Source: an uncultured Methanosarcinales archaeon (lineage in GTDB: Archaea > Nanobdellota > Nanobdellia > Woesearchaeales > JAHJBD01). From it: a DNA stretch of 64,000 nt. Shown piece by piece: positions 12,155-64,000 of this stretch. The first letter of the stretch is position 1. Every line of letters starts with the position of its first letter. The stretch is from NCBI GenBank assembly GCA_964534665.1, contig CAZHRT010000002.1:42231-106230 (forward strand), in the 5' to 3' direction. The notes under the pieces were generated by a model. That model searched no databases. It worked only from the letters and a program-made list of their open reading frames with translations, and was not told where the DNA came from. Made by a program: the position numbers and the translations under genes.

Positions 12155-12172
12155 TTTATAAATTTATAAGAA

Positions 12173-13117: not shown

Positions 13118-13230
13118 TTTTAAAGATCCCTAGAACAAGAACCTATATCTTACATAATATATGTTCTCTACATTAAAGAATCCTGTATTCATTTATAAAC
13201 CTAACTGTTATATTTTATAATCTATATAAT

Positions 13231-19487: not shown

Positions 19488-19613
19488 ATGGATTATTCAA
19501 GCAGTGTACAACAAGATTACAATTCAGGAGCAGATTATTCTAGTTCTAGTAATGAAAAAAGAGGCATGTGCACAGCTAACTGTTCAAATTGTACTGGTTG
19601 CCGTTTTCAATGA
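19488..19613 (+). CDS. small Cys-rich peptide (41 aa), speculative
   Basis: own translation ...KRGMCTANCSNCTGCRFQ; no clear SD; overlaps zwf stop convergently. Confidence 0.2.
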   Translation: MDYSSSVQQDYNSGADYSSSSNEKRGMCTANCSNCTGCRFQ

Positions 19614-33155: not shown

Positions 33156-33164
33156 ATTTTTATA

Positions 33165-38758: not shown

Positions 38759-40178
38759 CCTTTTTTACCTCATGTATATTTGTTAACATATAACCTTGGG
38801 CTTGAGCAGAATCTTTTGTTAATAAAAAACCAGAATCAAGTAATTCTGCTTGTTGATCAAGGTTATAATGTCTATCAATAAAATCTTGTCTAAAACTATC
38901 TAAGAAATTTGTAGTTGCATAATTAAGAAATTCTATAAATCCTTCAGCACTCATAGGAAAATTAGGATATCCACCTACATGACATATTGTTCTTAATTTT
39001 CCATATCTTGTTCTCATGACTGGATCAACAATATTTACTTCTGAATAGAATGGTGCATCTTCTTTTATAGACCCACGATAAGTTACTCCACCTTCATTTT
39101 CATGATAACCAAGATATTGAATTTTTCCTTGTCTAAATACTAAGCCAATTCCAAAATCTCCAGCAAAACCATCATCATCACAATCTTTTGGTAAAAATAG
39201 ATTAGCATCATAAGTTGTTTGTCTTGCAAATTTAGGAATTCTCTTAAACACATAATAAATTTCACCATTACGATAAAAACCAATGTCTCTAAACCTAAAT
39301 TCATCACAATCCATTAACGGCATATACTCAACATCTTTCATAACAACCTTTTCCATATTATGTACTGCATCTCTAATCATTTCAAGTGCAGCAATTCTTA
39401 TTGTATGGGAAAACATACTAGAATAATTAGATTTTATTCTTGAAGCACTGAATAATTTAGGATTGTAAGTTCTAGTTTGACCATCAACACATACATGGAG
39501 GTCTTTATCATCTCCTTCTTTATCTAATTGGTATACTTTTCCTCCCAATATTAACATAGGCACATTTCTACTTACTTTTGAAAATATTGATGCTTCTCTT
39601 ACACTAAGTTCTCTTATTGCATGAGTATCATTTGGTAATTCCTCTGAAGCTAATCCAAAATTATCCCTAAAATCTCTATCCAGTTGTTCTTCAAGCCTTG
39701 CAACAGCGTGTGTCCTAACCTCAACAGTCTTTACTTGTCTCTCAATCTGATCACCCATTGCTTCAGCAATAATTTCTGAACCAGTTGGTACTTCTGTTTT
39801 ACCAGAGACTATTGCATCTACTCTATCTTCTAAAGGTGCAGCTATCATCTTAGGAAATATTTCATCAACAATAAACTTTAACAAATTATATCTGTGCGTA
39901 AAATCAAGAACACTTTTCCCATCCCTTTGTAGATGATCTTCAATATAATCAGTTTTTACAGTTTCAATTTCATCTCTGCTTTCTAATCTTGTTGCTCTTT
40001 CAATATCACTTATAGGTGTTCCACAACTTAAAGGGAAAAAAACTTGGCTGTCACCAACTCTTTGAACTAATGTATTTTCTGTTGCATTAGTTGTTGGCAT
40101 TCCAATAGAATATAGTCTATCACCAAAAAGCACCATGCTTTGACGATTATCAATAGCATGATCCAAAAAGGTCTTCAT
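38745..40178 (-). CDS. hypothetical protein, operon gene 2
   Basis: 477 aa. Confidence 0.4.
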   Translation of the reverse strand: MKTFLDHAIDNRQSMVLFGDRLYSIGMPTTNATENTLVQRVGDSQVFFPLSCGTPISDIERATRLESRDEIETVKTDYIEDHLQRDGKSVLDFTHRYNLLKFIVDEIFPKMIAAPLEDRVDAIVSGKTEVPTGSEIIAEAMGDQIERQVKTVEVRTHAVARLEEQLDRDFRDNFGLASEELPNDTHAIRELSVREASIFSKVSRNVPMLILGGKVYQLDKEGDDKDLHVCVDGQTRTYNPKLFSASRIKSNYSSMFSHTIRIAALEMIRDAVHNMEKVVMKDVEYMPLMDCDEFRFRDIGFYRNGEIYYVFKRIPKFARQTTYDANLFLPKDCDDDGFAGDFGIGLVFRQGKIQYLGYHENEGGVTYRGSIKEDAPFYSEVNIVDPVMRTRYGKLRTICHVGGYPNFPMSAEGFIEFLNYATTNFLDSFRQDFIDRHYNLDQQAELLDSGFLLTKDSAQAQGYMLTNIHEVKKGARR

Positions 40179-40180
40179 TT

Positions 40181-40918
40181 TTACTGAACCATATATTCAA
40201 GATTACCTGGGCTACCCTTTCTTGCTACTGTAGCAGGAGCTCTGTAAACAGTCGGCTTTTTAGGTTGAGCAACCTCAGCAGCTGTTGGTTTACCATCTCC
40301 TTCAGCAATTGTAGCTTGGGCTCTATGTTTACCTTTATGAATTCTAAAATATTGCCTAAATTTCCTTGTTGTTCCTTTATTTACAGGTTGTCCATCTAAA
40401 GTCATAATAACTTCTTCTAAAGCATCATCCCCATGAGCCCTTTCATATGTATCATATAATCCTCTTGCAATTCTTCTATCTGTAGAATCAGTAAATACAC
40501 CTTTATCTTGATTTTGTCTGATTAACTGAACTAGAGCATCATAAGCAGGCATGTCTAATACTGTTGGATTACATACAGCAATTGCACAATCATCAGCTCT
40601 GCTTGTTGGACCAATATGTGCTAAATAAACATCTTGTACTGTTGGTGTAGCAGCAGGCCTTGCGGTTTGTGCAGGTCTAGAAGCAGGTGTAGGTTCTTGG
40701 GTTCTACTTTCTCCTGTAGTAGGTGGTTGATAGCTTGCAAAATCAGCTCTACCAGCACCAGGCCTATACCCTGTAATTTCAATTTCTGTTTGGCCTTTAG
40801 GAACACCAGAAACAAAACAAGTTTTACCACTTGGTAAATTTATTCTTGCATCCTCCTGTCTTCCAAAACCTAGAACTCTAAACTTTTGACCTTCAAATGG
40901 ATTTTCATCATTTGCCAT
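40181..40918 (-). CDS. hypothetical protein, operon gene 1 (Pro/Ala/Thr-rich linker between N- and C-terminal regions)
   Basis: 245 aa; 2 nt before gene 2. Confidence 0.4.
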   Translation of the reverse strand: MANDENPFEGQKFRVLGFGRQEDARINLPSGKTCFVSGVPKGQTEIEITGYRPGAGRADFASYQPPTTGESRTQEPTPASRPAQTARPAATPTVQDVYLAHIGPTSRADDCAIAVCNPTVLDMPAYDALVQLIRQNQDKGVFTDSTDRRIARGLYDTYERAHGDDALEEVIMTLDGQPVNKGTTRKFRQYFRIHKGKHRAQATIAEGDGKPTAAEVAQPKKPTVYRAPATVARKGSPGNLEYMVQ

Positions 40919-43566: not shown

Positions 43567-44067
43567 GTGATTAAAACATCAATTAACGATATTATTCAGG
43601 AATTAAGACAAGGTAAGATTGATCAGATTGAATTATATTTAGATTATAATGGTCAAGTTAACAAGATTATGATAAATAATGCAATGAAAAAACAAAAAGA
43701 AGTCAGGAAGGTAAGTCTAAAAGGAAATAAATTGCCAAATGTAAATTTTAGTCAAACAAGAATAAAAGGAAATTTCTCAGGACTTACCCTTTCTGGCTCA
43801 AACTTTTCATATTCAACAATTGAGACAGCAGACTTTTCAAGCACTAATCTGTATGGTGCTGATTTTAATAAAGCAAAAATCTCACAAACAAACATGTCAT
43901 CAGCATATAACGCAAATTTGGGAAATGCATATATGACTGGATCAGTTAATTTATATAATGTTAATCCAGAAAATACACATTCATATAATCCAAGAACAAC
44001 AGAAGTAAAAATGCTTGATGATACACAAGATATAAATAGGGTAATCCTATCAAAGAGAAATTATTAA
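43567..44067 (+). CDS. pentapeptide-repeat protein
   Basis: tandem A(D/N)LxG-like pentapeptides NFSQTRIKGNFSGLTLSGSNFSYSTIETADFSSTNLYGADFNKAKI; start uncertain (track GTG lies inside SD; in-frame ATG at 43669). Confidence 0.6.
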   Translation: MIKTSINDIIQELRQGKIDQIELYLDYNGQVNKIMINNAMKKQKEVRKVSLKGNKLPNVNFSQTRIKGNFSGLTLSGSNFSYSTIETADFSSTNLYGADFNKAKISQTNMSSAYNANLGNAYMTGSVNLYNVNPENTHSYNPRTTEVKMLDDTQDINRVILSKRNY

Positions 44068-44077
44068 AGGTGATATT

Positions 44078-44662
44078 ATGAAAATAATTAATAAAAGAAA
44101 AACAAATTATGATGTGAACTCTATTTTTCCAAAGAGGTGGTCTCCTAGAGCCCTTTCAGGAGAAAAGATAACAAAAACACAGTTAATGAAACTATTTGAA
44201 GCTGCACGTTGGTCTCCTTCATCTTATAACAACCAGTCATGGAGATTTATTTATGCAATGAAAGGAACTAAACAATTCCAGACATTGTTTAAAATATTAG
44301 CACCACCAAACCAAGTATGGTGTAAAAATGCTTCAGTTTTAATTGTAATTGTATCAAAGAAAACATTTGATTATAATAAAAAACCATCAATTACACATTC
44401 TTTTGATACAGGCGCAGCTTGGATGAGTTTAGCTTTGCAAGCTTCTATGTCTGGTTTAGTAGCGCATGGTATGCAAGGGTTAGATTATGTTAAAGCACAA
44501 AAACAACTTAACATACCTAAAGATTATCAAGTTGAAGCAATGTGTGCAATTGGAAAAAAAGGCAAAAAATCCTTACTTCCAAAAGAAATGCAAGCAATAG
44601 AAATGCAATCAGACAGGAAACCAATAACCAAGATTGCCTTTGAAGGCAAATTTAAAAGGTGA
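44078..44662 (+). CDS. nitroreductase-family protein
   Basis: RWSPRALSGEKI...AARWSPSSYNNQSWRF. Confidence 0.7.
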   Translation: MKIINKRKTNYDVNSIFPKRWSPRALSGEKITKTQLMKLFEAARWSPSSYNNQSWRFIYAMKGTKQFQTLFKILAPPNQVWCKNASVLIVIVSKKTFDYNKKPSITHSFDTGAAWMSLALQASMSGLVAHGMQGLDYVKAQKQLNIPKDYQVEAMCAIGKKGKKSLLPKEMQAIEMQSDRKPITKIAFEGKFKR

Positions 44663-44666
44663 TAAA

Positions 44667-45230
44667 ATGGTAAATATAAATGATAAAGCACCTGAATTTA
44701 CAGAAGATGCTTTAATAAACAATGAAATTAAAAAAATTAGTCTATCAGATTATAAAGGTAAATGGGTAGTATTATTCTTCTATCCAGCAGATTTCACATT
44801 TGTCTGTCCAACAGAACTTGGATCTTTAGCTGATAACTATGATACTATTAAGTCAATGAATACAGATGTTATTAGTGTAAGCACAGACACAGCTTTTGTA
44901 CATAAAGCCTGGCACGACCATTCAGATACAATCAAAAAAATTAAGTTTCCAATGTTAGCAGATCCTACAAGAAGAGTATGTAAATCATATTGGACATTAA
45001 TTGAGAATGAAGGCCTTTCACTCAGAGCAACTTTCATCATTGATCCAGAAGGAATTGTAAAAGCCTTTGAATTTAATGACTTAAGTATTGGAAGAAGTAG
45101 TGAAGAAATTATCAGAAAACTTCAAGCTGCACAATTTGTGGCAGAACATGGTGATCAAGTGTGTCCAATGAACTGGAAACCCGGTGAAAAAACATTAACA
45201 CCTGGATTAGATTTAATAGGTAAGATATAA
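44667..45230 (+). CDS. peroxiredoxin (AhpC/2-Cys Prx type)
   Basis: FFYPADFTFVCPTEL peroxidatic Cys motif; start at ATG after AGGTGA (track starts 44634). Confidence 0.8.
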   Translation: MVNINDKAPEFTEDALINNEIKKISLSDYKGKWVVLFFYPADFTFVCPTELGSLADNYDTIKSMNTDVISVSTDTAFVHKAWHDHSDTIKKIKFPMLADPTRRVCKSYWTLIENEGLSLRATFIIDPEGIVKAFEFNDLSIGRSSEEIIRKLQAAQFVAEHGDQVCPMNWKPGEKTLTPGLDLIGKI

Positions 45231-45236
45231 TAACAA

Positions 45237-45280
45237 AAACTTTACAATTAAGATTATAAATTATAATTAATGTAAAGTTT
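45237..45280. promoter_or_regulatory. near-perfect 14-bp inverted repeat AAACTTTACAATTAA-N15-TTAATGTAAAGTTT between prx and grx/trxB operon
   Basis: read directly; one bulged A. Confidence 0.45.
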
Positions 45281-45357
45281 GTGGAATTGAAAAATATAAT
45301 GATTTTTCAATAAAATATATAAAGAAAGAGAACAAAAACGACTATGAGGTGTTTATT

Positions 45358-45591
45358 ATGGGAAATATAACTGTATATTCAACACCAACTTGCCCTTGGT
45401 GTAAGAAAGTTAAAGAATGGCTAAAAGAAAAGAAAATTGAGTTTAAAGATATTGATGTATCAGAAAACGAAGATGCTAGAAATGTAATGGTTGAAAAATC
45501 AGGACAAATGGGTGTTCCAGTTATTGATGCAAACGGCACAGTTATAGTTGGCTTTGATGTCGATAAACTAGAAAAAGCAATCAAATCATAA
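45358..45591 (+). CDS. glutaredoxin-like / NrdH-like small redoxin
   Basis: YSTPTCPWCKKVKEWL CPxC; GAGGTG SD. Confidence 0.7.
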   Translation: MGNITVYSTPTCPWCKKVKEWLKEKKIEFKDIDVSENEDARNVMVEKSGQMGVPVIDANGTVIVGFDVDKLEKAIKS

Positions 45592-45592
45592 G

Positions 45593-46531
45593 ATGTATGA
45601 TATAGCAATAATCGGTAGCGGCGTATCAGGCTTAGGTGCTGCACTTTATGCAGGTCGATTTGAACTAAAAACTATTGTAATAGGTGATAAATCAGGGGGT
45701 ACAATCATCTTAACAGATGAAATTGCCAATTATCCTGGTTTTTCTAACATTTCTGGTATTGACCTTGCAGACAAACTAAAAAAACATGTGCAAGATTATG
45801 ATGTAGAATTTCTAGATTCTAAAGTAAAAGATATTAAGAAAGGAAAAACATGTTTTGGTTTATCTACAGTTAATAAGAACATCAGAACAAAAACAATAAT
45901 CTTCGCTACAGGAACTGAATGGAAAAAATTAAAAGTTCCAGGAGAGTCAGAATTCACAGGTAAAGGCGTACATTATTGTGCACTATGCGATGGTGCATTC
46001 TATAAAAATAAAATTGTTGCAGTTGTTGGTGGTTCTGATTCAGCTGCAAAAGAAGCACTTTTATTAACAAAATATGCTAAAAAAGTCTACATCATCTATC
46101 GTGGTGAAAAGATTAAACCTGAACCAATCAATGAAAAGAAAGTTGCAGCAAATAAACAAATAGAAATTATCAATTATACTAATGTTACTAAAATAAAAGG
46201 GGATAAGTTTGTTTCTTCAATTATTTTAGATAAAGAATACAAAGGCAATAAAGAATTGAAGCTTGATGGGTTATTTGTTGATATTGGTCATATTGCATTA
46301 TCAAAAGAAGCTAAAGATCTTGGAGTAAAACTAAATGAAAAAGGCGAGATAATAATCAACTGTGATGGTAATACAAACATTCCCGGAGTTTTTGGTGCAG
46401 GTGATGTTTGCAATACAAAATTCAAGCAAGCAATAACTGGTGTTGCTGAAGGTGTTAGTGCAACTTATTCAGCATATACTTATGTAACAAACACAAAAAT
46501 ATTATGTACAGACGATGAGGTAGAAAAATGA
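45593..46531 (+). CDS. trxB: thioredoxin-disulfide reductase
   Basis: FAD site YDIAIIGSGVSGLGAA, redox CALCDGAFY, NAD site VVGGSDSAAKEAL. Confidence 0.85.
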   Translation: MYDIAIIGSGVSGLGAALYAGRFELKTIVIGDKSGGTIILTDEIANYPGFSNISGIDLADKLKKHVQDYDVEFLDSKVKDIKKGKTCFGLSTVNKNIRTKTIIFATGTEWKKLKVPGESEFTGKGVHYCALCDGAFYKNKIVAVVGGSDSAAKEALLLTKYAKKVYIIYRGEKIKPEPINEKKVAANKQIEIINYTNVTKIKGDKFVSSIILDKEYKGNKELKLDGLFVDIGHIALSKEAKDLGVKLNEKGEIIINCDGNTNIPGVFGAGDVCNTKFKQAITGVAEGVSATYSAYTYVTNTKILCTDDEVEK

Positions 46532-47049
46532 TAAAAAAGAAAATTATAGATGCGATAAATAAACAAATTAATGCTGAGTTTTACTCTTCATTTTTATATT
46601 TGTCAATGGCAGCATATTTTGAAGATCAAAATCTTCCTGGCATGGCAAATTGGGAAAGGGTTCAAGCTAAAGAAGAAACAACACATGCAATGAAATTTTA
46701 TAATTTCTTATCTGAACGTGGTGGACGTATTGTCCTTGATACTATTGCAAAACCTTCATCAGACTGGAAAAGTCCATTAGACGTTTTTCAAACTGGATTA
46801 GCTCACGAACAAAAAGTAACAGCAATGATAAACACTTTAATGGACTTAGCTGTTGCTGAAAAAGATCATGCAACTATCTCAGTACTTCAATGGTTTGTTG
46901 ATGAACAAGTTGAAGAAGAAGCAAACGCAGATGCAATTGTTAAAAAGCTAAAACTTGCAGGAAATATGGCTGGTGCATTATTTATGATTGATAAAGAACT
47001 TGAAGCAAGAGTTTTTGTTGATGAAACTCAAGTTGGGGCAGAAAAATGA
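46528..47049 (+). CDS. ftn: ferritin (non-haem, FtnA-like)
   Basis: INAEFYSSFLYLSMAAYF...EETTHAMKFYNFL aligns with E. coli FtnA ferroxidase-site helices. Confidence 0.75.
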   Translation: MIKKKIIDAINKQINAEFYSSFLYLSMAAYFEDQNLPGMANWERVQAKEETTHAMKFYNFLSERGGRIVLDTIAKPSSDWKSPLDVFQTGLAHEQKVTAMINTLMDLAVAEKDHATISVLQWFVDEQVEEEANADAIVKKLKLAGNMAGALFMIDKELEARVFVDETQVGAEK

Positions 47050-47429
47050 CTAAATTACATGAAATCTATAAATGCAGTGTTTGTGGTAATGTTGTATCAG
47101 TTATGGTTCTTGGTGGCGGTACACTAGTTTGCTGTGGCAAAGAAATGGATTTGCAAGAGGAAAAAACTGGTGAACAAGAAGGTAATGAAAAACACGTGCC
47201 AGTTGTTTCAGTTGAATCTGGTCAAGTTAGTGTTAATGTGGGCTCTGTTGATCATCCAATGGAAGAAGACCATTATATTGTTTTAATACAATTGGTTAAA
47301 GATGGAGAAGTAATTGCTGGCAAACGCTTAAAACCAGGTGATAAACCAAATGCAACTTTCTGTTTAGACAGTATAGAAGGCGTTAAAGCAAGAATCTTTT
47401 GCAACCTGCATGGTGTCTGGGTTAATTAG
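47046..47429 (+). CDS. dfx: desulfoferrodoxin-type superoxide reductase
   Basis: N-term CSVCGN...LVCCGKEM desulforedoxin site; C-term EKHVPV...H...CNLHGVW centre-II ligands. Confidence 0.8.
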   Translation: MTKLHEIYKCSVCGNVVSVMVLGGGTLVCCGKEMDLQEEKTGEQEGNEKHVPVVSVESGQVSVNVGSVDHPMEEDHYIVLIQLVKDGEVIAGKRLKPGDKPNATFCLDSIEGVKARIFCNLHGVWVN

Positions 47430-49079: not shown

Positions 49080-49472
49080 GTGAAACAATCAAAAGAAGAT
49101 TATCTTATAACCATGTATTCATTGCATGAAAAAGGTGAGATTAAATCTGTAGATATAGCTAATATCCTTAGGGTTTCTAAGCCAAGTGTATCAGAAATGA
49201 TAAAGAAGTTAGCTAGTGAACTATTAGTAGATGCAAAACCTTATTCTAAAATTAAATTTACAAAAAAAGGTTTAGATGAAGCAAAACGTATCATGCACAA
49301 CCATCGAGTTATAGAAGTATTTTTAAAAAAAGTTCTCAAATATGATATCAACAAAGTTCATGAAGAAGCACATAGATTAGAACATGCTTTTTCAGAAGAG
49401 TCTATCAAAAGATTAGACGAATTAGTAAAAAATCCAAAAAAATCACCGTTTGGAAAGGATATACCACATTAA
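49080..49472 (+). CDS. DtxR/MntR-family metal-dependent transcriptional repressor
   Basis: EDYLITMYSLHEKGEIKSVDIANILRVSKPSVSEMIKKL HTH; GTG start. Confidence 0.65.
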   Translation: MKQSKEDYLITMYSLHEKGEIKSVDIANILRVSKPSVSEMIKKLASELLVDAKPYSKIKFTKKGLDEAKRIMHNHRVIEVFLKKVLKYDINKVHEEAHRLEHAFSEESIKRLDELVKNPKKSPFGKDIPH

Positions 49473-49689
49473 TATGAAAACATTAGAAGATTTAAAAGCC
49501 AAACAAAAAGGCATTGTAAAAGAAGTTAAAGATAAAGAACTTAGTAATCATTTGATTAGATTTGGTATTGGTAAGGGCTCTAAGATAACGTGTAATGAAA
49601 AAATACCTTTAGGTCCAATAATAATTAAATTTAATTTACAAGAAATAGCTATTGCAAGAAATTTAGCTAAAATGGTAGTATTAAAATGA
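49450..49689 (+). CDS. feoA: FeoA-like protein
   Basis: 79 aa SH3-like; LKAKQKGIVKEV...IRFGIGKGSKI; overlaps feoB start. Confidence 0.6.
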   Translation: MERIYHINMKTLEDLKAKQKGIVKEVKDKELSNHLIRFGIGKGSKITCNEKIPLGPIIIKFNLQEIAIARNLAKMVVLK

Positions 49690-51395
49690 AAAATATTGTT
49701 TTAGCTGGCAACCCAAATGTTGGAAAATCTGTTTTCTTTAATTATTTTGGTGGTGTGTATGCAGATGTCAGTAATTTTCCAGGTACAACAGTTGAAGTAG
49801 CAAAAACACATTACAAAAATCATCAAATTCTTGATACTCCAGGAATTTATAACTTAGGAAAAGAAAATGATGAAGAAAAAGTAGCATTTGATATAATTAA
49901 AAAGGGAGATGCAATCCTAAATATTGTTGATGCAACCCATTTAGAAAGAGATATTTTCTTAACATTACAATTGATCGAATTAGGTAAACCCTTGATTGTT
50001 GCTTTAAATTTTATGGATGATGCTAAAGAAAATGGTGTTGATATAGATACTAAAAAACTAACAAAACTACTTGGTGTTGATATTATTGAAACAGTTGCAA
50101 CAAAAAATAAAGGATTGGATAAAATTAATTTTAAAAATTTTAAAAAAGGGCATTTAGTAAAATTAACAAAAATAGATTCTTGTAAATCAGCATGTAATGG
50201 TTGCGATCTTGATATGTTTCGAAGAAACAAAGTTGATAACATTATCAATAGCACTGTTAAATATAATTCAGGACCAAAGAAAGTTGGTGAAGTATTTGCT
50301 CGCTTATCAACACACCCTTTTGCTGGTGTAATAATTTTACTATTAATTATGTACTTATTATACTTGTTTGTGGGTGTGTTTGTTGCTCAAACAGTTGTTG
50401 GTGTAACAGAAGAGACAATTATGCAAGGTTATTACGAACCATTTATCATAAATACCCTCAGTAATTTAATTCCTCAAGGATCTGCTATTGGTACAATTGT
50501 ATATGGTGAGTTTGGTTTAATTACTATGACTATAACTTACTTACTAGGTTTATTATTACCCTTAGTGCTAGGTTTTTATCTAGTTCTTTCAATATTAGAA
50601 GATAGTGGTTATCTTCCAAGGTTAGCTGCATTAGTTGATAGATTACTAAATTTTATAGGTTTGAATGGCAAAGCAGTAATTCCTTTAATTCTTGGTCTTG
50701 GTTGTGTTACATGTGCAACAATAACAACAAGAATTCTTAAAACAAAGCGAGAAAAAACAATTGCAACTTCTATCTTACAGTTTGTCATACCTTGTTCTGC
50801 ACAAATAGGCGTTATAGCAGCATTACTTGCAATTGCAGGCAAAAAATACTTGATAGGTTATGTTTTAATCATATTCATTATTCTTGTCTTATTAGGCACA
50901 ATATTAAACAAATTCTTGCCAGGAAAATCTTCACAATTATTATTACACTTGCCTAGAATGAGACTACCAAGAATTAACAATGTTTTAAAGAAAACTTATA
51001 CTAAAACTAAATGTTTTATGAAAGAAGCAACTGTATGGTTCTTTATTGGTGCTTTTATTGTTGGTTTTATGCAAGTTACTGGATTATTGATTAGAATTCA
51101 GGAATGGATAAAACCTTTTGTTGTAGGTTTTTTACAACTTCCAAAAGAAGCAGCTGTTGCTTTTATCATGGGGCTAGTAAGACGAGATTTTGGGGCAGCT
51201 GGTTTTTATAACATGTCATTATCTCCACCACAAATACTAGTTGCTATGGTTACCATCACTTTATTTGTACCATGTATTGCTTCTGCAATGATTTTGTTTA
51301 AAGAACGTGGCTGGAAAACAGGATCTTTTATATGGTTAGGTACATGGATATTTGCTTTCTTAATTGGTGGTATAGTTTCCCATTTAATTATCTAA
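49686..51395 (+). CDS. feoB: ferrous iron transporter FeoB
   Basis: G1 IVLAGNPNVGKS, G-domain then ~8 TM with gate motif regions. Confidence 0.85.
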   Translation: MKNIVLAGNPNVGKSVFFNYFGGVYADVSNFPGTTVEVAKTHYKNHQILDTPGIYNLGKENDEEKVAFDIIKKGDAILNIVDATHLERDIFLTLQLIELGKPLIVALNFMDDAKENGVDIDTKKLTKLLGVDIIETVATKNKGLDKINFKNFKKGHLVKLTKIDSCKSACNGCDLDMFRRNKVDNIINSTVKYNSGPKKVGEVFARLSTHPFAGVIILLLIMYLLYLFVGVFVAQTVVGVTEETIMQGYYEPFIINTLSNLIPQGSAIGTIVYGEFGLITMTITYLLGLLLPLVLGFYLVLSILEDSGYLPRLAALVDRLLNFIGLNGKAVIPLILGLGCVTCATITTRILKTKREKTIATSILQFVIPCSAQIGVIAALLAIAGKKYLIGYVLIIFIILVLLGTILNKFLPGKSSQLLLHLPRMRLPRINNVLKKTYTKTKCFMKEATVWFFIGAFIVGFMQVTGLLIRIQEWIKPFVVGFLQLPKEAAVAFIMGLVRRDFGAAGFYNMSLSPPQILVAMVTITLFVPCIASAMILFKERGWKTGSFIWLGTWIFAFLIGGIVSHLII

Positions 51396-52613
51396 CCAAG
51401 GTTCAATAACTCTATCTAAAGCACCTTGAATATAACTTAAGAAAACTCCATAATTAGTATATGGTATACCTAAACTATTAAGGTCTCTTAATCTTGCAGC
51501 AATTTTTTGAGAAGATATCATGCAACCACCACAATGTATAATCAACTTATATTCCATTAATTTATTATTTTCTTGAAACTCTCTCCCAAAATTATGTTGA
51601 ACAACAACACCAGGATATTTCTGAGACATATATTCAGGAATTTGTTTTGTTCCAATATCTTCACCAATCCTTGAATGATTGCACGCTTCTACAATTAATA
51701 TCTTATCACCCACAACTAAACTATCAAGCATCTTAACACCTTCAACAAATTCATTTAAACGCCCTTTTGAAACATAATTTATCATAACTATGGAAAAAGT
51801 AGTTAACATAATATCCTCTGGCACAAGTTTATGCATGATATCCATTGCTTGACTATCTGTTATAATTGCTTTAGGCCTTTTCTTAAAACTTTCAAGATAA
51901 CTATGAAAACGCATAATTTCTGTTTCATCACCTTGCCTTATTTTAACTAAATCCATTCGATAACAACTAGGATATGCCCAATTTCTTGTGATAAACTCAT
52001 CCACCATTGCTTGAGGCCTTAGATATCTTCCAGTAGGTGTTTCAATATCCATTGGAATATTCAATACATAAAATTCATCTTTTTCAATAAATGGCAATAA
52101 CTCAATTTTCTTATTTTTTGATTCAAAGTTTTCTAAAATAAAATTTAGTAACTCTTGCCTATAATTTTCATCATTAGCTTTAATTCTAATCTTTTTATAA
52201 AACTTCAATAATTTGATTTTATCATCAGCATTATTTTCATCCTCAAACAAATTATAAACTATCAATATTTGTTTATTTAATTCTCGAGCATTTTTTAATA
52301 TCTTATCTTCAGTATCAAGATATTCTTTAGATGGATCAATAACTAACAATACAAGGTCACATTCTTTTAGATCAGAAATAATTTTTAATCGCTTTTTTTC
52401 TCCAAGTTGATCTGTTTCATCATAACCAGCAGTATCAAACAGTTTAACAGGTCCTAAACCATGAATCTCTTGTAAAGTAGTCTTTGTATCAGCAGTTGTT
52501 CCAGGTGTTGAATCAACAATTGAAGTTATTTGTTGAGTTAAAAGATTCATAACACTACTTTTTCCCACATTCATCCTTCCAAATATTCCAATATTATCTC
52601 TGTCTATTAGCAT
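51384..52613 (-). CDS. hydF: [FeFe]-hydrogenase maturase GTPase HydF
   Basis: GIFGRMNVGKSS G1; C-term EACNHSRIG (CxH) and IIHCGGCM (HCxxC) cluster motifs. Confidence 0.7.
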   Translation of the reverse strand: MLIDRDNIGIFGRMNVGKSSVMNLLTQQITSIVDSTPGTTADTKTTLQEIHGLGPVKLFDTAGYDETDQLGEKKRLKIISDLKECDLVLLVIDPSKEYLDTEDKILKNARELNKQILIVYNLFEDENNADDKIKLLKFYKKIRIKANDENYRQELLNFILENFESKNKKIELLPFIEKDEFYVLNIPMDIETPTGRYLRPQAMVDEFITRNWAYPSCYRMDLVKIRQGDETEIMRFHSYLESFKKRPKAIITDSQAMDIMHKLVPEDIMLTTFSIVMINYVSKGRLNEFVEGVKMLDSLVVGDKILIVEACNHSRIGEDIGTKQIPEYMSQKYPGVVVQHNFGREFQENNKLMEYKLIIHCGGCMISSQKIAARLRDLNSLGIPYTNYGVFLSYIQGALDRVIEPWLDN

Positions 52614-53607
52614 AGTTTAACGAGTCACCCCATTCTCCAAACGCAGGTGTCAGACCAGTAGATTTAATCCTTTGCGTTATACAACCTAAACATTCTTCAG
52701 AAGTTTCATTGATGCAAGGTTTATCATCATATAATAGATATTGATTACGATACTTTGTTGGTGTAGTTATTGGCATTATAATATTAGCACCCGCTTTTAA
52801 TCCTAACTCTCTTCCAATAGGATTTAACACCTGTAATGCTGTTGTTGATGCAATATTTATGTTAGGCATTAATATTCTTAAGGCAGCAATCATATTTAAT
52901 GATAAATCAAGATCAGCATTAACATCTTTTCTTAGATATGGTCCCATGCCAACCATATCAACATCAATTTCTTTAAAGAATAAAAGGTCTTTAGCAAGAT
53001 TCTCAATTGTTTGGAACGGAGAATTAATCATAACACCTGTTCCAACCTGAAAACCAATATCTTTTAGATCTTTAAGACACTGTTTTCTAGTATCAAAACT
53101 CATATTAGCTGGGTGTAATCTTTCATAATGTTTTTTATCAGAAGTTTCAATCCTTAATAGATATCTGTGAGCACCAGCATCAAAGAACCTTTGAAATATT
53201 TCTTTAGTTTGTTCACCAACACATAAGGTAATCCCAAGCTTTGGAAATTTCTCTTTAATTTGCTTAACAACATCTTCAACAAAGTCAATAAACTTATAAT
53301 CTTGTCTTTCACCTGATTGTAATACAATTGAACCATAATTAACATCATTACAAAATTTAGCACTATCTAAAATCTCTTGTTTAGTCATCTTATATCTTTT
53401 AACATCTTTACTTTTGCTAATACCACAATACCCACAATCATTATCACAGATATTCGAAAACTCAATTAATCCTCTAAAATAAACCTTATTTTTTACAGTT
53501 TTATCTCTAATTTCAGCAGCTTTCTTATGCAAACTCTTTTGCTCTTCTCCTTTAGCATTCAACTGTTCTAATAATTCAGAAATATAAGTCTCGTTCTCCA
53601 TTTTCAA
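52594..53607 (-). CDS. hydE: [FeFe]-hydrogenase maturase radical SAM HydE (biotin-synthase-like)
   Basis: NICDNDCGYCG CxxxCxxC near N-terminus, ~340 aa BioB-like. Confidence 0.65.
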   Translation of the reverse strand: MKMENETYISELLEQLNAKGEEQKSLHKKAAEIRDKTVKNKVYFRGLIEFSNICDNDCGYCGISKSKDVKRYKMTKQEILDSAKFCNDVNYGSIVLQSGERQDYKFIDFVEDVVKQIKEKFPKLGITLCVGEQTKEIFQRFFDAGAHRYLLRIETSDKKHYERLHPANMSFDTRKQCLKDLKDIGFQVGTGVMINSPFQTIENLAKDLLFFKEIDVDMVGMGPYLRKDVNADLDLSLNMIAALRILMPNINIASTTALQVLNPIGRELGLKAGANIIMPITTPTKYRNQYLLYDDKPCINETSEECLGCITQRIKSTGLTPAFGEWGDSLNYANRQR

Positions 53608-54952
53608 TTCTTTTTAGATATTTGTTTGTTAATTCCTTTCTTTCTTCACTTGGAATATTTTCAATTTCTTTTTTTATAATCTCATTACCTGATTGTTTTG
53701 TTTCAATATCAGCATAATCAACTAAATATTCTTTTAATGTTGTTAGAGCATTTGGTAAACAATGTAATTTAATCAATCCAGGTTTTGCTAAATCCATAAA
53801 ATCCTTGCCAACTCTTCCTAACCTATAACATCCAGTACAAAATGAAGGAACATAACCTTGATTTAGAACTGAACTGATAATTTCCCCTGTAGATCTTGTA
53901 TCATTTAAAGAAAACTGTTCTTCATTTTCAGGGTTTACTATAGATTCTTCATATCCACCAGGGTTAGTTTTTGAACCAGCACTAATTTGGCTAACTCCAA
54001 GATCAAAAACTTGTTTACGCATGTCAGCAGATTCTCTTGTTGATAATATTATCCCTGTATAAGGGACAGCACATCTTAGTACAGCAACTATTTTTTTAAA
54101 ATCCTTATCTGATACTGGGTGAGGTATATTATTTGCAGCAGGTGCGTTCTGTGCAGGTTCTAACCTAGGAACAGATATGGTATGTGGTCCAACATTAAAT
54201 TTTTCATCTAAATGTTTAGCATGTTGTATTAATGCTAACACTTCAAACCTGTAATCATACAATCCAAACAATGCACCAATACCAACATCATTTATTCCAT
54301 TACTTAATGCACGATCCATACATTCGATTCTCCAATTATAATCTGCTTTCTTTCCAGTTGGATGCATTTCCTTATATGTGTCATGATGGTATGTTTCCTG
54401 AAAAACAGTATATGTTCCAATTTTTACATTATTTAAAATCTTAAATTGGTCGTCTGTTAAAGGAGCAATTTCAATATTTATTCTTCTGATTGAATTACCT
54501 TTTGAATCTTTAACAGAATACACAGCTTTTATAGATTTAAAGAAATAATCTAGACTACATTCAGAATTCTCCCCCATTAACATTAATATTCTTTTGTGCC
54601 CTTGTTCAAGAATAAATTTTGTTTCTTTTTTAATTTGATCTAATGTAAGGCAAGTTCTTTTCATAGAAGTATTATCAATTCTAAAACCACAATAAAGACA
54701 ATTATTAGAACAATGATTAGAAACATACAAAGGTGCAAACAAAACTAACCTATTACCATAAATCAATTGCTTAATCTTTGAAGCAGTTTTGAATAACTTT
54801 TGTAGGTTTTCATCATCCTTAATATTAATTAATTTTGCAACATCTTCTAAAGACAATCCTTTAAGCTGTAATGCTTTGTCTAATACGAAATCAACATTCT
54901 GGGGATTAATATCTAACAAAGAGTTAATCAGATTTTCATCAATAAAATTCAT
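53576..54952 (-). CDS. hydG: [FeFe]-hydrogenase maturase radical SAM HydG (ThiH-like tyrosine lyase)
   Basis: SNHCSNNCLYCGF; C-terminal CTGC-x22-C auxiliary-cluster motif. Confidence 0.7.
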   Translation of the reverse strand: MNFIDENLINSLLDINPQNVDFVLDKALQLKGLSLEDVAKLINIKDDENLQKLFKTASKIKQLIYGNRLVLFAPLYVSNHCSNNCLYCGFRIDNTSMKRTCLTLDQIKKETKFILEQGHKRILMLMGENSECSLDYFFKSIKAVYSVKDSKGNSIRRINIEIAPLTDDQFKILNNVKIGTYTVFQETYHHDTYKEMHPTGKKADYNWRIECMDRALSNGINDVGIGALFGLYDYRFEVLALIQHAKHLDEKFNVGPHTISVPRLEPAQNAPAANNIPHPVSDKDFKKIVAVLRCAVPYTGIILSTRESADMRKQVFDLGVSQISAGSKTNPGGYEESIVNPENEEQFSLNDTRSTGEIISSVLNQGYVPSFCTGCYRLGRVGKDFMDLAKPGLIKLHCLPNALTTLKEYLVDYADIETKQSGNEIIKKEIENIPSEERKELTNKYLKRIENGERDLYF

Positions 54953-55025
54953 AAATTAAACTAAATTTATGATTATAAAATAGTATCGTTAAATATTTAA
55001 ACTATAAAGTTAAACTAAGTTTAAA

Positions 55026-55460
55026 ATGTTAACTAAGAATGAAAAAAAGGTATTATCCATATTAATCAACAATGCTAGAGTTAGTGATAGTGAAATATCT
55101 AACAAAATAGGTATTACACCTCAAGGTGTTAGAAAGATAAGGAAGAAATTAGAAAACAATTACATAAATCAATACAGAACAATTGTTGATTATGATAAAA
55201 TTGGCATAAAAGTTTTTGCAATTGCACAAATTAAGTTATTAAATACAGAATTATTAAAAAGTAAGAATATAATTGGTGCATTTGAAATAAACGAAGCAAA
55301 CCTTACCCACATCCTAATTCTCGGATTTAATTCTCTTGAAGAAGTTGACGATTATAAAAGATTCATTAAAAAAGATGCTTTAATTCAAAAGATGAATCTT
55401 ATATCAAACAAAGGTATGTTAAAAAATTCCCCAGTAGAATTAATAAGAAATCAGTTATAA
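55026..55460 (+). CDS. HTH transcriptional regulator (Lrp/AsnC-like)
   Basis: NEKKVLSILINNARVSDSEISNKIGITPQGVRKIRKKLE. Confidence 0.45.
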   Translation: MLTKNEKKVLSILINNARVSDSEISNKIGITPQGVRKIRKKLENNYINQYRTIVDYDKIGIKVFAIAQIKLLNTELLKSKNIIGAFEINEANLTHILILGFNSLEEVDDYKRFIKKDALIQKMNLISNKGMLKNSPVELIRNQL

Positions 55461-57607: not shown

Positions 57608-58276
57608 ATGGACAACATAATTTTATGGATATTATTTATGATTGTAGATTTAAGCATGGTATTGATAGCTTACAAATTATTTGGTAAGAACGGATTATAT
57701 GCTATGATTGTAATGAGCATCATTGTTGCTAATATCCAAGTTCTAAAAACAGTTAACATGCTTGGCATGGTAGTTACCTTAGGAAATGTTTTGTATGGTT
57801 CAATATTTTTAGCAACAGACCTATTAAATGAATTTTATGGTAAGAAATCAGCTAAAAAAGGAGTTTGGCTAGGTTTTTTTGTTTTAATATTAACAACATT
57901 ATACATGCAAATAGCTTTATTATTTACTCCAGACATCAGCGATTTTGCACACCCTTTACTTGAAGGTTTATTTGGCTTTTTCCCAAGAATAGTTTTTGCT
58001 TCTCTAGTTGCTTATTTACTTAGTCAGATGCATGATGTATGGGCTTTTTCATTTTGGAAAAAATTTACTCATGGTAAACATCTATGGCTAAGAAACAACG
58101 CATCAACTGTTATCAGTCAGTTAATTGATAGTGTTATATTCTCTGTAATTGCATTCTTAGGAGTATTTCCTTTAGATATATTCTGGCAAATATTACTAAC
58201 AACTTATTTGTTTAAGTTATTTGTAGCGGTAATAGATACGCCGTTTATGTACTTTGCAAAGTTGATAAAGAAATAA
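57608..58276 (+). CDS. yhhQ: queuosine-precursor transporter YhhQ (DUF165)
   Basis: ANIQVLKTV...GNVLYGSIFLATDLLNEFYGKKSAKKGV, 6 TM. Confidence 0.6.
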   Translation: MDNIILWILFMIVDLSMVLIAYKLFGKNGLYAMIVMSIIVANIQVLKTVNMLGMVVTLGNVLYGSIFLATDLLNEFYGKKSAKKGVWLGFFVLILTTLYMQIALLFTPDISDFAHPLLEGLFGFFPRIVFASLVAYLLSQMHDVWAFSFWKKFTHGKHLWLRNNASTVISQLIDSVIFSVIAFLGVFPLDIFWQILLTTYLFKLFVAVIDTPFMYFAKLIKK

Positions 58277-63594: not shown

Positions 63595-64000
63595 ATGAAA
63601 CTACTCTTACACGTGTGCTGTGCACCTTGTTCAACTCACGCAATTGAAACAGTGATGAAAGATTATGAAGTAACTTTACTATTTTCTAATTCAAACATTT
63701 CACCAAAAGAAGAATATGATAAACGTCTAGAACAAGCAAGAAAAATAGCTAAAATATACAAATTAAAATTAATTGAAGATGATTATAACCATGAAGCTTG
63801 GTTAAAATATATCAAAGGGTTTGAACAAGAACCAGAAGGTAAATTAAGGTGTGAAAAATGCTTTGAATTCAACCTTAAACAAACTAATAACTTTGCAAAA
63901 GACTTTGACTACTTCACTACTACATTAACTATCTCACCACATAAAGATTCTACTAAGATTTTTAAAGTGGGCAAAACTACTAGTAATAAGTTCTTAGAAA
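63595..64000 (+). CDS. queH: partial CDS: epoxyqueuosine reductase QueH (DUF208), N-terminal part
   Basis: MKLLLHVCCAPCSTHAIE N-terminal Cys motif; runs off window end. Confidence 0.55.
   Translation, partial: MKLLLHVCCAPCSTHAIETVMKDYEVTLLFSNSNISPKEEYDKRLEQARKIAKIYKLKLIEDDYNHEAWLKYIKGFEQEPEGKLRCEKCFEFNLKQTNNFAKDFDYFTTTLTISPHKDSTKIFKVGKTTSNKFLE

What the first reader, a model, noticed from the sequence alone, without database searches (positions are those of the whole stretch)
51384..54952. hydG-hydE-hydF maturase operon in an archaeal context with no hydrogenase structural gene nearby
All three [FeFe]-hydrogenase H-cluster maturases are recognisable (HydF CxH/HCxxC, HydE CxxxCxxC, HydG CxxxCxxC plus C-terminal CTGC-x22-C). 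They are tightly overlapped, but no HydA-like gene lies within the window. [FeFe]-hydrogenase machinery is uncommon in archaea, so the location and identity of the client hydrogenase, or an alternative substrate, is of interest.
Basis: partly seen in the sequence, partly recalled or inferred. Interest (0 to 1): 0.5.

Follow-up and report, generated by a model that had tools for sequence, protein, structure and literature searches.

The report
Archaeal hydGEF hydrogenase-maturase operon with regulator
A tiny-genome (DPANN, Woesearchaeota-like) archaeon carries a genuine three-gene set for building the iron-iron hydrogenase active site, plus its own dedicated regulator; this is rare but already reported in archaea, and the hydrogenase it serves was not found and probably lies elsewhere in the genome.

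Summary
Three overlapping minus-strand genes at 51384-54952 are bona fide hydG, hydE and hydF. HydG and HydE pass NCBIfam equivalog cut-offs. HydF misses by 6 bits but has both HydF-specific Pfam domains. All cluster-binding motifs are present, and all three align full-length to solved maturases. The context is archaeal (S3Ae, L15e, TFIIE-alpha, A-type ATPase), and the nearest relatives are Woesearchaeota MAGs. No HydA lies in the window or 10 kb either side (84 kb). New here: the conserved unit has four genes, because a divergent Lrp/AsnC regulator (55026-55460) and an invariant 16-bp element (54987-55002) accompany hydGEF in 8 related loci. One relative (L093) has hydC-hydB-hydA directly abutting this module, so the clade's client is an ordinary group-A trimeric [FeFe] hydrogenase. 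Two relatives carry SHMT between hydE and hydF, which fits serine-derived bridge synthesis. The HydG tree gives one archaeal clade sister to spirochaete/planctomycete sequences, and codon usage is fully host-like, so the transfer is old. Seven HydA candidates were tested for this genome and rejected by codon usage, so its own HydA remains unlocated. Verdict: a new member of a known, rare kind (Greening 2024), of moderate interest.

The parts
53576..54952 (-). hydG: radical-SAM tyrosine lyase that makes the Fe(CO)2(CN)-cysteine synthon
   Evidence: TIGR03955 517.9 bits vs cut-off 312. Full-length match to solved HydG 4WCX, E 4e-151. CX3CX2C, C-terminal CX2CX22C and the GPHTISVPR motif are conserved across 82 HydG sequences.
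52594..53607 (-). hydE: radical-SAM maturase (start TTG 53607 or ATG 53601); overlaps the hydG stop by 26-32 nt
   Evidence: TIGR03956 359.6 bits vs cut-off 254.6. Match to solved T. maritima HydE 3CIW, E 3e-74, over residues 14-326. CDNDCGYC motif present.
51384..52613 (-). hydF: scaffold/carrier NTPase; overlaps hydE by 20 nt and the convergent feoB stop by 12 nt
   Evidence: TIGR03918 319.2 bits (cut-off 325.55). Pfam MMR_HSR1, HydF_dimer and HydF_tetramer all above threshold. Solved HydF 5KH0, E 2e-54, full length. G1-G3 and CxHx46HCxxC intact; G4 NKxD replaced by NLFE.
55026..55460 (+). Divergently transcribed Lrp/AsnC (FFRP) family regulator, conserved partner of hydGEF
   Evidence: Directly upstream and divergent from hydG in the window plus 7 related loci (L006, 007, 008, 010, 013, 015, 093). 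Pfam HTH_24/HTH_AsnC. AF2 model pLDDT 84 with wHTH + beta-alpha-beta-beta-alpha-beta domain. Top 37 PDB fold matches are all Lrp/AsnC, probability 1.00. 49 homologue clusters, all >=54% identical; every source name that gives an organism is DPANN.
54987..55002 (.). Invariant 16-bp element GTTTAAATATTTAACG (written on the hydG strand) containing the 12-bp palindrome TTAAATATTTAA; putative operator overlapping the regulator's own TATA position and abutting the hydG promoter
   Evidence: Unique in the 64 kb window (expected 0.2 at <=2 mismatches). Identical in 6 related loci and 2 mismatches in L010, always at the same position in a 66-75 bp intergenic region. Absent from clade loci lacking the regulator and from all hydrogenase loci held.
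54973..54980 (-). TATA-like box TTTTATAA, 21-28 nt upstream of the hydG ATG
   Evidence: Conserved as TTTT(T)TATAA in the aligned intergenic regions of the related loci. The position matches an archaeal TATA box for a leaderless or short-leader transcript (inference from general knowledge of archaeal promoters).

Best explanation
This is a functional hydG-hydE-hydF operon for building the [2Fe] subcluster of the [FeFe]-hydrogenase H-cluster, in a Woesearchaeota-like DPANN archaeon. HydG makes the Fe(CO)2(CN)-cysteine synthon from tyrosine, HydE processes it into a di-iron precursor, and HydF receives it, the azadithiolate bridge is completed, and HydF hands the cluster to apo-HydA. The three genes are translationally coupled through overlaps. 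They are transcribed from a promoter shared head-to-head with a dedicated Lrp/AsnC-type regulator, which most likely binds the invariant palindromic 16-mer between the two genes. That binding would control its own promoter and hydGEF, probably in response to a small molecule such as an amino acid. The module was acquired once, long ago, from bacteria (the sister group is spirochaete/planctomycete HydG). It then diversified within Woesearchaeota and behaves as a movable four-gene cassette. Its client is an ordinary group-A, HydABC-type (NuoE/NuoF-partnered) [FeFe] hydrogenase encoded elsewhere in this genome. Shown: gene identities, motifs, conservation of the four-gene module and the 16-mer, physical linkage to hydCBA in one relative, and the phylogeny. 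Inferred: regulator-operator binding, the effector, and the presence of an unlinked hydA in this particular genome.
For: Identities. Motifs conserved. Real organism: identical proteins in 27-32 collection blocks, on contigs up to 325 kb. Module conservation: Lrp + hydGEF in 8 loci, with intergenic length 73-75 bp in 7 of 8 and an invariant 16-mer. Client: L093 carries hydC-hydB-hydA (Fe_hyd_lg_C 3e-91, NuoE- and NuoF-like partners) immediately next to the same Lrp-hydGEF module. L093's HydG falls inside the archaeal clade with the window. The HydA's 120 best homologues form a DPANN clade named Woesearchaeota/Nanoarchaeota/Altiarchaeota. Cassette behaviour: P0005's locus (HydA 86% identical to L093's) has the same backbone, hydC-hydB-hydA-BioY...CysRS-ValRS, without the module. 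SHMT inserted between hydE and hydF in L006 (the window's closest relative) and L009 matches the published role of serine/SHMT in azadithiolate synthesis (PMC8148037; PMC11736057). Ancient transfer: hydGEF GC3 0.16-0.19 equals the genome's 0.166; the archaeal clade has 70% NJ bootstrap. Prior: 191 of 200 HydF-bearing genomes score positive for the hydrogenase large subunit (PMC3226654); Woesearchaeales are reported to carry group A3 enzymes (PMC11216029).
Against: No HydA was found for this genome. None lies in 84 kb around the operon. Seven HydA candidates were tested: two shared samples with the window's organism, and the rest were chosen for matching sources, long contigs, AT-biased composition or a possible link to related MAGs. 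All failed the synonymous-codon test: RSCU r 0.78-0.98 against a within-genome range of 0.988-0.998, and GC3 0.18-0.35 against 0.166. No listed DPANN-type HydA shares the 325,693 / 299,148 / 296,503 bp contigs that carry the window. Only 1 of 13 clade loci has hydA adjacent. HydF scores 6 bits under the NCBIfam cut-off and lacks the NKxD guanine-specificity motif, so its nucleotide chemistry may differ from characterised HydF. Regulator-operator binding is untested. The 16-mer overlaps a TATA-like sequence, so it could be partly promoter rather than operator.
Confidence: 0.72

Rival explanations
1. Orphan maturases. This genome has no HydA at all. The HydGEF products serve a non-HydA client, or supply a [2Fe] precursor to another cell, or the operon is a leftover after loss of the hydrogenase.
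For: Searches for a matching HydA were all negative: with seven candidates rejected. The window's proteins are each on record in about 28 blocks, so a group-A HydA of the same clonal population should also be abundant, yet none with that signature was listed. Greening et al. note a general mismatch between hydrogenases and maturases in archaea.
Against: A reduced DPANN genome keeping 3.6 kb of intact, motif-perfect, host-adapted genes plus a dedicated regulator implies a client under selection. A clade member has hydCBA fused to the module. 191 of 200 HydF genomes have the hydrogenase. The search was blind to more than 240 kb of the same contig and to the rest of the genome. It also only listed HydAs >=55-65% identical to two queries, so groups B, C, E and minimal forms were not covered.
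Confidence: 0.15
2. The adjacency to DtxR-FeoA-FeoB is functional. The maturase operon would be part of an iron-uptake/iron-homeostasis regulon, with Feo feeding Fe(II) to HydG.
For: feoB and hydF are convergent and overlap by 12 nt. A DtxR-type iron repressor and FeoA precede FeoB. HydG needs ferrous iron (general knowledge). Thioredoxin reductase and desulfoferrodoxin lie near hydF both here and in L015.
Against: None of the 11 related genome loci has feoA, feoB or dtxR within 10 kb of hydGEF. The genes are convergent, hence separate transcripts. The conserved regulator of the module is the Lrp-like protein, not DtxR.
Confidence: 0.08
3. Mis-identified paralogues: ThiH/BioB/PylB-type radical-SAM enzymes and a generic Der/Era-type GTPase, unrelated to hydrogenase.
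For: HydF is 6 bits under the NCBIfam cut-off and has a degenerate G4 motif. JGI's automatic name for HydG is '2-iminoacetate synthase'.
Against: ThiH scores 318.8, under its own cut-off of 380, against 517.9 for HydG. The HydG-specific C-terminal CX2CX22C domain is present. BioB and PylB score 79-116 against 359.6 for HydE. The HydF-specific dimerisation and tetramerisation domains and CxHx46HCxxC are present. All three are linked in one operon, next to hydCBA in L093.
Confidence: 0.02
4. Bacterial contamination or a chimeric contig: the operon is bacterial DNA mis-joined to archaeal sequence.
For: HydEFG are mainly bacterial, and a spirochaete-symbiont sequence nests in the clade.
Against: The same junctions were recovered independently in many assemblies from ENA, JGI and Logan. 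hydGEF GC3 (0.16-0.19) and codon usage match the flanking archaeal genes. Twelve archaeal-labelled genomes and contigs carry the same clade.
Confidence: 0.01

Closest known systems
Archaeal HydE/HydF/HydG sets reported by Greening et al. 2024 (Cell 187:3357; PMC11216029)
   Same: Complete maturase trio in DPANN-type archaea. Inferred multiple or ancient lateral acquisitions from bacteria. Woesearchaeales associated with group A3 trimeric [FeFe] hydrogenases.
   Different: That survey started from hydrogenase-encoding genomes and found only 5 of 130 with all three maturases. Its main text as searched did not mention a conserved regulator, operator or SHMT insertion. Here the operon was found without a hydrogenase in view. 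I could not read its Table S3, so overlap with the relatives found here is unknown.
Bacterial hyd maturase operons (hydG/hydE/hydF next to hydA, e.g. the Smithella/Syntrophaceae loci fetched here; characterised proteins from Thermotoga, Thermoanaerobacter, Thermosipho)
   Same: Same three proteins, same cluster-binding motifs, same domain architecture, 50-57% identity for HydG. Operons often carry accessory genes for bridge-atom supply (aspA, sdaA; PMC11736057).
   Different: In about 25 of the bacterial loci hydA lies within 10 kb of hydG; here it does not. The bacterial HydF sequences from Smithella and solved HydF 5KH0 keep NKID in G4; this clade has N-[LIV]-F-x. The divergent Lrp/AsnC regulator and the 16-mer were seen only in the archaeal clade. 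The accessory gene in two archaeal relatives is SHMT rather than an ammonia-lyase.
Archaeal Lrp/AsnC (FFRP) regulators such as Pyrococcus LrpA/FL11 (PH1519), Sulfolobus ST1022
   Same: About 145-aa wHTH plus RAM-like beta-alpha-beta-beta-alpha-beta domain. Divergent arrangement next to the regulated operon. AT-rich palindromic target overlapping the promoter region.
   Different: Only 14-24% sequence identity to solved members. The C-terminal domain is not recognised by Pfam AsnC_trans_reg. The effector is unknown. Association with hydrogenase maturation genes has not, to my knowledge, been described.
ThiH / BioB / PylB / HmdB-type radical-SAM paralogues
   Same: Shared radical-SAM TIM-barrel core and BATS domain.
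   Different: They lack the HydG C-terminal CX2CX22C domain, score below their own family cut-offs here, and are not found in a hydG-hydE-hydF arrangement.

Membership tests
HydG (TIGR03955) | Score above the curated equivalog cut-off and above the paralogue ThiH | tested here: met
   517.9 bits vs cut-off 312.15; ThiH 318.8, under its cut-off of 380
HydG (TIGR03955) | N-terminal CX3CX2C radical-SAM motif and C-terminal CX2CX22C auxiliary-cluster motif | tested here: met
   CSNNCLYC and CTGC-x22-C read from the sequence; conserved in an alignment of 82 HydG; aligned to solved HydG 4WCX over residues 22-458
HydG (TIGR03955) | Tyrosine lyase activity giving CO and CN- on an Fe-cysteine synthon | not testable with these tools
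   Requires enzymology
HydE (TIGR03956) | Score above the curated equivalog cut-off and above BioB/PylB; CX3CX2C motif; full-length similarity to solved HydE | tested here: met
   359.6 vs 254.6; PylB 115.8, BioB 79.5; CDNDCGYC; 3CIW E 2.6e-74, residues 14-326
HydF (TIGR03918) | Score above the curated equivalog cut-off | tested here: not met
   319.2 vs 325.55, 6 bits short; profile covered 7-392 of 392
HydF (TIGR03918) | Three-domain architecture: GTPase + HydF dimerisation + HydF tetramerisation/cluster domain | tested here: met
   PF01926 78.7, PF18128 50.2 and PF18133 129.1 bits, all above gathering scores; 5KH0 E 2.4e-54 over residues 6-406
HydF (TIGR03918) | [4Fe-4S] ligands CxH...HCxxC | tested here: met
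   CNH-x46-HCGGC; EACNHSR and [IV]HCGGCM present in all 14 other clade sequences examined
HydF (TIGR03918) | Canonical GTPase motifs G1-G4 | tested here: inconclusive
   G1 GRMNVGKS, G2 TPGTT and G3 DTAG are present. G4 NKxD is replaced by NLFE in the window and N-[LIVT]-F-x in the whole clade. It is also degenerate in Acidobacteriota, Brachyspira, Spirochaetes and Planctomycetota HydF. Nucleotide specificity is therefore uncertain.
[FeFe]-hydrogenase maturation system (HydA + HydEFG) | A HydA (PF02906, H-cluster motifs L1-L3) in the same genome | tested here: inconclusive
   Absent from window +-10 kb. Seven candidates rejected by codon usage. Present next to the same module in relative L093.
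Lrp/AsnC (FFRP) transcription regulators | N-terminal winged HTH plus C-terminal RAM-like beta-alpha-beta-beta-alpha-beta domain | tested here: met
   Pfam HTH_24/HTH_AsnC; AF2 secondary structure; Foldseek top 37 PDB hits all Lrp/AsnC, E 5e-8 to 1e-5, probability 1.00
Lrp/AsnC (FFRP) transcription regulators | Sequence-specific binding to a palindromic operator, modulated by a small-molecule effector | not testable with these tools
   A conserved 16-mer with a 12-bp palindrome co-occurs strictly with the regulator, but binding and effector need experiments

The most novel reading that the evidence does not exclude
This Woesearchaeote carries the maturases but no hydrogenase. Meanwhile, co-resident Woesearchaeota in the same samples carry HydABC at a locus where, in a relative, the maturase cassette sits (P0040 and P0005 in samples ERZ27250217 and SRR7617950). 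If those neighbours lack HydEFG, as most archaeal hydrogenase carriers are reported to, H-cluster maturation in DPANN communities could be split between cells, or the maturases here could serve a non-HydA client. Either would bear on the open question of how maturase-less archaeal [FeFe] hydrogenases are activated.
Probability: 0.05. Interest if true: 0.85.

Novelty: new member of a known kind. Interest (0 to 1): 0.38.

Why it matters
Greening et al. 2024 showed that archaea have active [FeFe] hydrogenases but found complete HydEFG in only 5 of 130 such genomes, and they suggested an unknown alternative maturation route. This window, with the relatives gathered here, shows a coherent and apparently vertically inherited Woesearchaeal lineage of the canonical maturases. 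That lineage comprises 12 archaeal-labelled sequences (the window, 10 species-representative MAGs and the metagenome contig L093), and about 49 90%-identity clusters of its dedicated regulator exist in metagenomes. The lineage has its own regulator, a conserved cis-element, occasional SHMT recruitment, and one case fused to hydCBA. That gives concrete archaeal maturases to test with archaeal hydrogenases in place of synthetic cofactors. It also offers a candidate regulator-operator pair for hydrogenase maturation, and a natural HydF variant lacking the guanine-specificity motif. The operon itself is what it looks like, so the surprise to a specialist is moderate.

Tried and rejected
1. Looking for the window organism's own HydA. 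Two large protein searches were run, with L093 HydA and with the paralogue P0123, plus expansion of 20 clusters. This was needed because I found that the contigs/longest-contig columns describe only the cluster representative. Candidates fetched and rejected by GC3 / RSCU r against the window (window GC3 0.166; leave-out r 0.988-0.997):
- P0040: 0.257 / 0.957
- P0036: 0.249 / 0.893
- P0005: 0.235 / 0.959
- P0144: 0.183 / 0.977
- P0145: 0.19 / 0.980
- P0020: 0.35 / 0.776
- P0297: 0.28 / 0.88
Tetranucleotide correlation alone was not discriminating.

2. Pairing any hydGEF locus with any HydA locus by codon usage: no pair reached 0.988.

3. The metagenome scan with HydF gave only 8 loci, 7 of them too short to be informative.

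4. The supplementary tables of Greening 2024 are not held, so I could not check whether the relatives are among their five genomes.

5. FeoAB/DtxR as part of the system: rejected, because the synteny is not conserved.

6. The HydF G4 loss as an archaeal novelty: rejected, because several bacterial HydFs share it.

7. The 16-mer as a regulon marker: it has no other copy in the window or upstream of any hydrogenase operon held.

8. The first tree attempt timed out and was redone with vectorised distances. It is NJ only, with no ML tree and no outgroup, so the rooting is by midpoint.

9. tRNA and Rfam scans of the window found nothing.

Full report
**1. The observation**

One search lists three minus-strand ORFs at exactly the stated coordinates: 53576-54952 (458 aa), 52594-53607 (337 aa) and 51384-52613 (409 aa). 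They overlap head-to-tail. The hydG stop overlaps the hydE start by 26-32 nt, depending on whether the TTG at 53607 or the ATG at 53601 is used; public gene calls use the latter. hydE and hydF overlap by 20 nt. This is typical of a translationally coupled operon.

- HydG: CSNNCLYC and C-terminal CTGC-x22-C
- HydE: CDNDCGYC
- HydF: P-loop GRMNVGKS and CNH-x46-HCGGC

**2. Family assignment**

Against NCBIfam:

| Protein | Model | Score (bits) | Cut-off | Best paralogue models |
|---|---|---|---|---|
| HydG | TIGR03955 | 517.9 | 312 | ThiH 318.8 (below its own cut-off of 380) |
| HydE | TIGR03956 | 359.6 | 254.6 | PylB 115.8, BioB 79.5 |
| HydF | TIGR03918 | 319.2 | 325.55 | Der/EngA 89 |

HydF falls 6 bits short, but the match covers the whole profile. 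Pfam finds both HydF-specific domains, HydF_dimer and HydF_tetramer, well above threshold. All three proteins align over essentially their full length with solved maturases: HydG with 4WCX (E 4e-151), HydE with 3CIW (3e-74) and HydF with 5KH0 (2e-54).

**3. Organism and reality of the locus**

The window has about 30% GC, with no tRNA, rRNA or Rfam hit. Archaeal and eukaryal-type markers are spread through it and its flanks: ribosomal proteins S3Ae and L15e, ZPR1, TFIIE-alpha, an A/V-type ATPase operon, wyosine synthase and the archaeal CCA-adding enzyme. The exact HydG protein occurs in 28 blocks of the public collection, from ENA, JGI, Logan and NCBI, on contigs up to 325,693 bp. Other window proteins behave the same way. 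hydGEF have GC3 of 0.16-0.19 against 0.166 +/- 0.027 for the window's genes. The operon is therefore native, not a chimera or a recent import.

**4. No hydrogenase nearby**

A regex for the H-cluster motifs found nothing in six frames. The same regex found HydA beside hydG in about 25 bacterial loci fetched later, which serves as a positive control. An HMM built from those 27 HydA sequences gave a best E of 1.8 in the window with all filters off. It found nothing in the 10 kb beyond each end. Pfam annotation of every called gene across those 84 kb shows no hydrogenase subunit of any class.

**5. Relatives and phylogeny**

A scan of one genome per GTDB species with HydG returned as best hits ten MAGs titled archaeon or Candidatus Woesearchaeota, plus some TPA bins titled 'uncultured Methanosarcinales archaeon' (56-77% identity). 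An Olavius spirochaete symbiont followed at 64%, and then Smithella/Syntrophaceae and many other bacteria at about 53-59%. The window's own species is not among the representatives.

An NJ tree was built from 54 sequences and 452 columns with 100 bootstraps. It puts the window, the ten MAGs, the metagenome contig L093 and the spirochaete symbiont in one clade (support 70). The window is sister to L006 (DeMMO1_7). The sister group of the clade is Spirochaetes/Brachyspira/Planctomycetota. Within the clade, GC3 ranges from 0.17 to 0.61. This means long residence and diversification after a single old transfer. The tree is distance-based and midpoint-rooted, so the donor and direction are provisional.

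**6. The conserved unit is four genes plus a cis-element**

Mapping window proteins onto the related loci shows the small gene at 55026-55460 conserved immediately upstream of hydG and divergent from it. This holds in L006, L007, L008, L010, L013, L015 and L093. The gene has a wHTH by Pfam. With a 35-sequence alignment it models at pLDDT 84 as wHTH plus a beta-alpha-beta-beta-alpha-beta domain. Its best 37 PDB fold matches are all Lrp/AsnC 'feast/famine' regulators at probability 1.00. A database search found 49 clusters of this protein, all at least 54% identical. Every source name that gives an organism names a DPANN lineage.

The intergenic region is 73-75 bp in seven of the eight loci. It contains an invariant GTTTAAATATTTAACG (window 54987-55002) with a perfect 12-bp palindrome, and a TATA-like TTTTATAA lies 21-28 nt before the hydG ATG. 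The 16-mer is unique in the window (0.2 expected at up to two mismatches). It is present in all eight loci that have the regulator, with two mismatches in L010. It is absent from the clade loci without the regulator and from every hydrogenase locus held. It is kept even where GC3 is 0.49-0.61.

Its centre lies about 31 nt from the regulator's ATG, where an archaeal TATA box would sit. Its edge is 6 nt upstream of the hydG TATA-like box, which is the BRE position. I infer autoregulation and control of hydGEF by this regulator. Binding and the effector are not shown.

**7. The client**

The single metagenome scan, with HydF, gave eight loci. One of them, L093 (24 kb, 34% GC, HydF 66% identical), carries three genes ending 3 bp before the regulator gene:
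- hydC: NuoE-like, PF01257
- hydB: NuoF-like, PF01512 + PF10589
- hydA: 570 aa, Fe_hyd_lg_C 3e-91, Fe_hyd_SSU, with motifs TTCCPAW, MPCTAKKYE and EIMACYGGCIGGGGQP

The regulator gene is followed by the 16-mer and hydG-hydE-hydF. The 120 best homologues of that HydA are a DPANN clade named Woesearchaeota, Nanoarchaeota and Altiarchaeota. This matches the report that Woesearchaeales carry trimeric group A3 enzymes (PMC11216029).

A closely related HydA (P0005, 86% identical) sits in the same backbone, hydC...hydB-hydA-BioY...CysRS-ValRS, without the module. The four-gene unit therefore behaves as a cassette that is inserted, moved or lost. A probable second linkage exists: regulator homologue P0341 and HydA P0146 both list a longest contig of 41,570 bp from the same sources. 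It could not be fetched.

**8. Accessory gene**

In L006 (the window's nearest relative) and L009, a serine hydroxymethyltransferase (PF00464, E 1e-137 and 7e-135) is inserted between hydE and hydF. Serine is the source of the CH2-NH-CH2 bridge (PMC8148037). SHMT, with the H- and T-proteins, is part of the defined maturation system, and hyd operons are known to recruit genes that supply bridge atoms (PMC11736057). This is independent support that the clade's maturases make a normal azadithiolate-bridged cluster. The window itself has no glyA or gcv genes within 84 kb. FTHFS and 5-formyl-THF cyclo-ligase lie just upstream.

**9. Does this genome have a HydA?**

I could not settle this. Candidates were taken from two searches and from inside 20 multi-member clusters. 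They were fetched and compared with the window by synonymous codon usage. Within-genome controls gave RSCU r of 0.988-0.998 and GC3 of 0.166-0.178.

| Candidate | GC3 / RSCU r | Note |
|---|---|---|
| P0040 | 0.257 / 0.957 | same ENA sample as window contigs |
| P0005 | 0.235 / 0.959 | same Logan sample as window contig |
| P0036 | 0.249 / 0.893 | |
| P0144 | 0.183 / 0.977 | |
| P0145 | 0.19 / 0.980 | NCBI GCA_053986505.1 and GCA_054000255.1; TNF r 0.983 |
| P0020 | 0.35 / 0.776 | |
| P0297 | 0.28 / 0.88 | |

The P0144/P0145 lineage is the nearest in composition. It carries hydCBA next to pta-ackA, PFOR and AOR, a fermentative H2-evolving layout, and is probably a related genus. No listed HydA shares the window's long contigs.

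The search could not see the other roughly 240 kb of the same contig or the rest of the genome. It only listed HydAs at least 55-65% identical to two group-A queries. Given the 191/200 co-occurrence of HydF with the large subunit (PMC3226654) and the L093 linkage, I put about 0.75-0.8 on an unlinked HydA and about 0.15 on a true orphan.

**10. Differences from textbook maturases**

HydF in the whole clade keeps G1-G3 and the cluster ligands but has N-[LIVT]-F-x (NLFE here) in place of the NKxD guanine-specificity motif. Smithella-type HydF and solved 5KH0 keep NKID. The same loss occurs in Acidobacteriota, Brachyspira, Spirochaetes and Planctomycetota HydF, most of which are the sister group in the HydG tree. 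It therefore marks a HydF subfamily, not an archaeal invention. It probably explains the slightly sub-threshold TIGR03918 score.

The adjacent DtxR-FeoA-FeoB genes (49080-51395) are convergent with hydF and thematically tempting, but they are not conserved neighbours in any of 11 related loci.

**11. Verdict**

The finding is real and correctly interpreted. It is a new member of a known but rare kind: canonical HydEFG in DPANN archaea. The added value lies in the clade-wide regulator-operator pair, the cassette behaviour, the SHMT recruitment and the physical link to HydABC in a relative. The one potentially surprising reading, maturases without a hydrogenase, is neither excluded nor favoured.

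Noticed in passing
window 32766-40918 (minus strand): Eight consecutive, mostly overlapping genes (129-495 aa) with GC about 0.34 against about 0.30 for the window. None has a Pfam, PADLOC or PHROG hit except the 482-aa protein at 35839-37287. That one has a ThiF/E1-like adenylation core and matches defence-type 'E1-E2' models only over about 60-130 residues (best 1.9e-11). It looks like an uncharacterised operon built around an E1-like enzyme.
   Followed up: partly
window 57608-58276 and 63595-64000; L086 11186-13964: A bacterial-type queuosine set in an archaeon: YhhQ/Vut_1 precursor transporter, QueH, and, just past the window end, QueA and a TGT. Archaea normally make archaeosine, not queuosine.
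   Followed up: no
L006 3517-4740; L009 2434-3711: Serine hydroxymethyltransferase (PF00464, E 1e-137 and 7e-135) inserted between hydE and hydF in two Woesearchaeal relatives. This is a genomic link between maturases and the serine-derived azadithiolate bridge.
   Followed up: yes
window 52230-52260 region of hydF (protein motif VYNLFEDE); all clade loci: The HydF G4 motif NKxD is replaced by N-[LIVT]-F-x throughout the archaeal clade and in several bacterial phyla (Acidobacteriota, Brachyspira, Spirochaetes, Planctomycetota). Nucleotide specificity of this HydF subfamily may differ from characterised GTP-specific HydF.
   Followed up: partly
L011 (Olavius algarvensis spirochete endosymbiont, NZ_UWYT01000239.1) 9986-13609: A bacterial symbiont's hydGEF nests inside the otherwise archaeal clade (64% HydG identity to the window) and lacks the regulator and the 16-mer. 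This is either archaeon-to-bacterium back-transfer or a clue to the donor lineage.
   Followed up: partly
L100 4296-11710 (ENA ERZ27237645 k141_777983): A co-resident Woesearchaeote carries two tandem hydC-hydB-hydA sets of different subtypes (HydB 367 aa vs 575 aa; the two HydA are only about 52% identical), followed by a LAGLIDADG homing-endonuclease-like gene.
   Followed up: no
window 43567-47429: A compact oxidative-stress cluster: pentapeptide-repeat protein, nitroreductase, 1-Cys peroxiredoxin, glutaredoxin, thioredoxin reductase, ferritin-like protein and desulfoferrodoxin. It sits 4 kb from the oxygen-sensitive maturase operon. Thioredoxin reductase and desulfoferrodoxin also lie 2-4 kb from hydF in L015.
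   Followed up: partly
window 19607-22400 (minus strand): Glucose-6-phosphate dehydrogenase, 6-phosphogluconolactonase-like and 6-phosphogluconate dehydrogenase together: an oxidative pentose-phosphate branch, which is unusual for archaea.
   Followed up: no
Genome contigs record titles for L008, L010, L012, L013: Several TPA bins titled 'uncultured Methanosarcinales archaeon' carry this DPANN-type module and group with Woesearchaeota MAGs in the HydG tree. The record titles are probably placeholder or wrong taxonomy.
   Followed up: no
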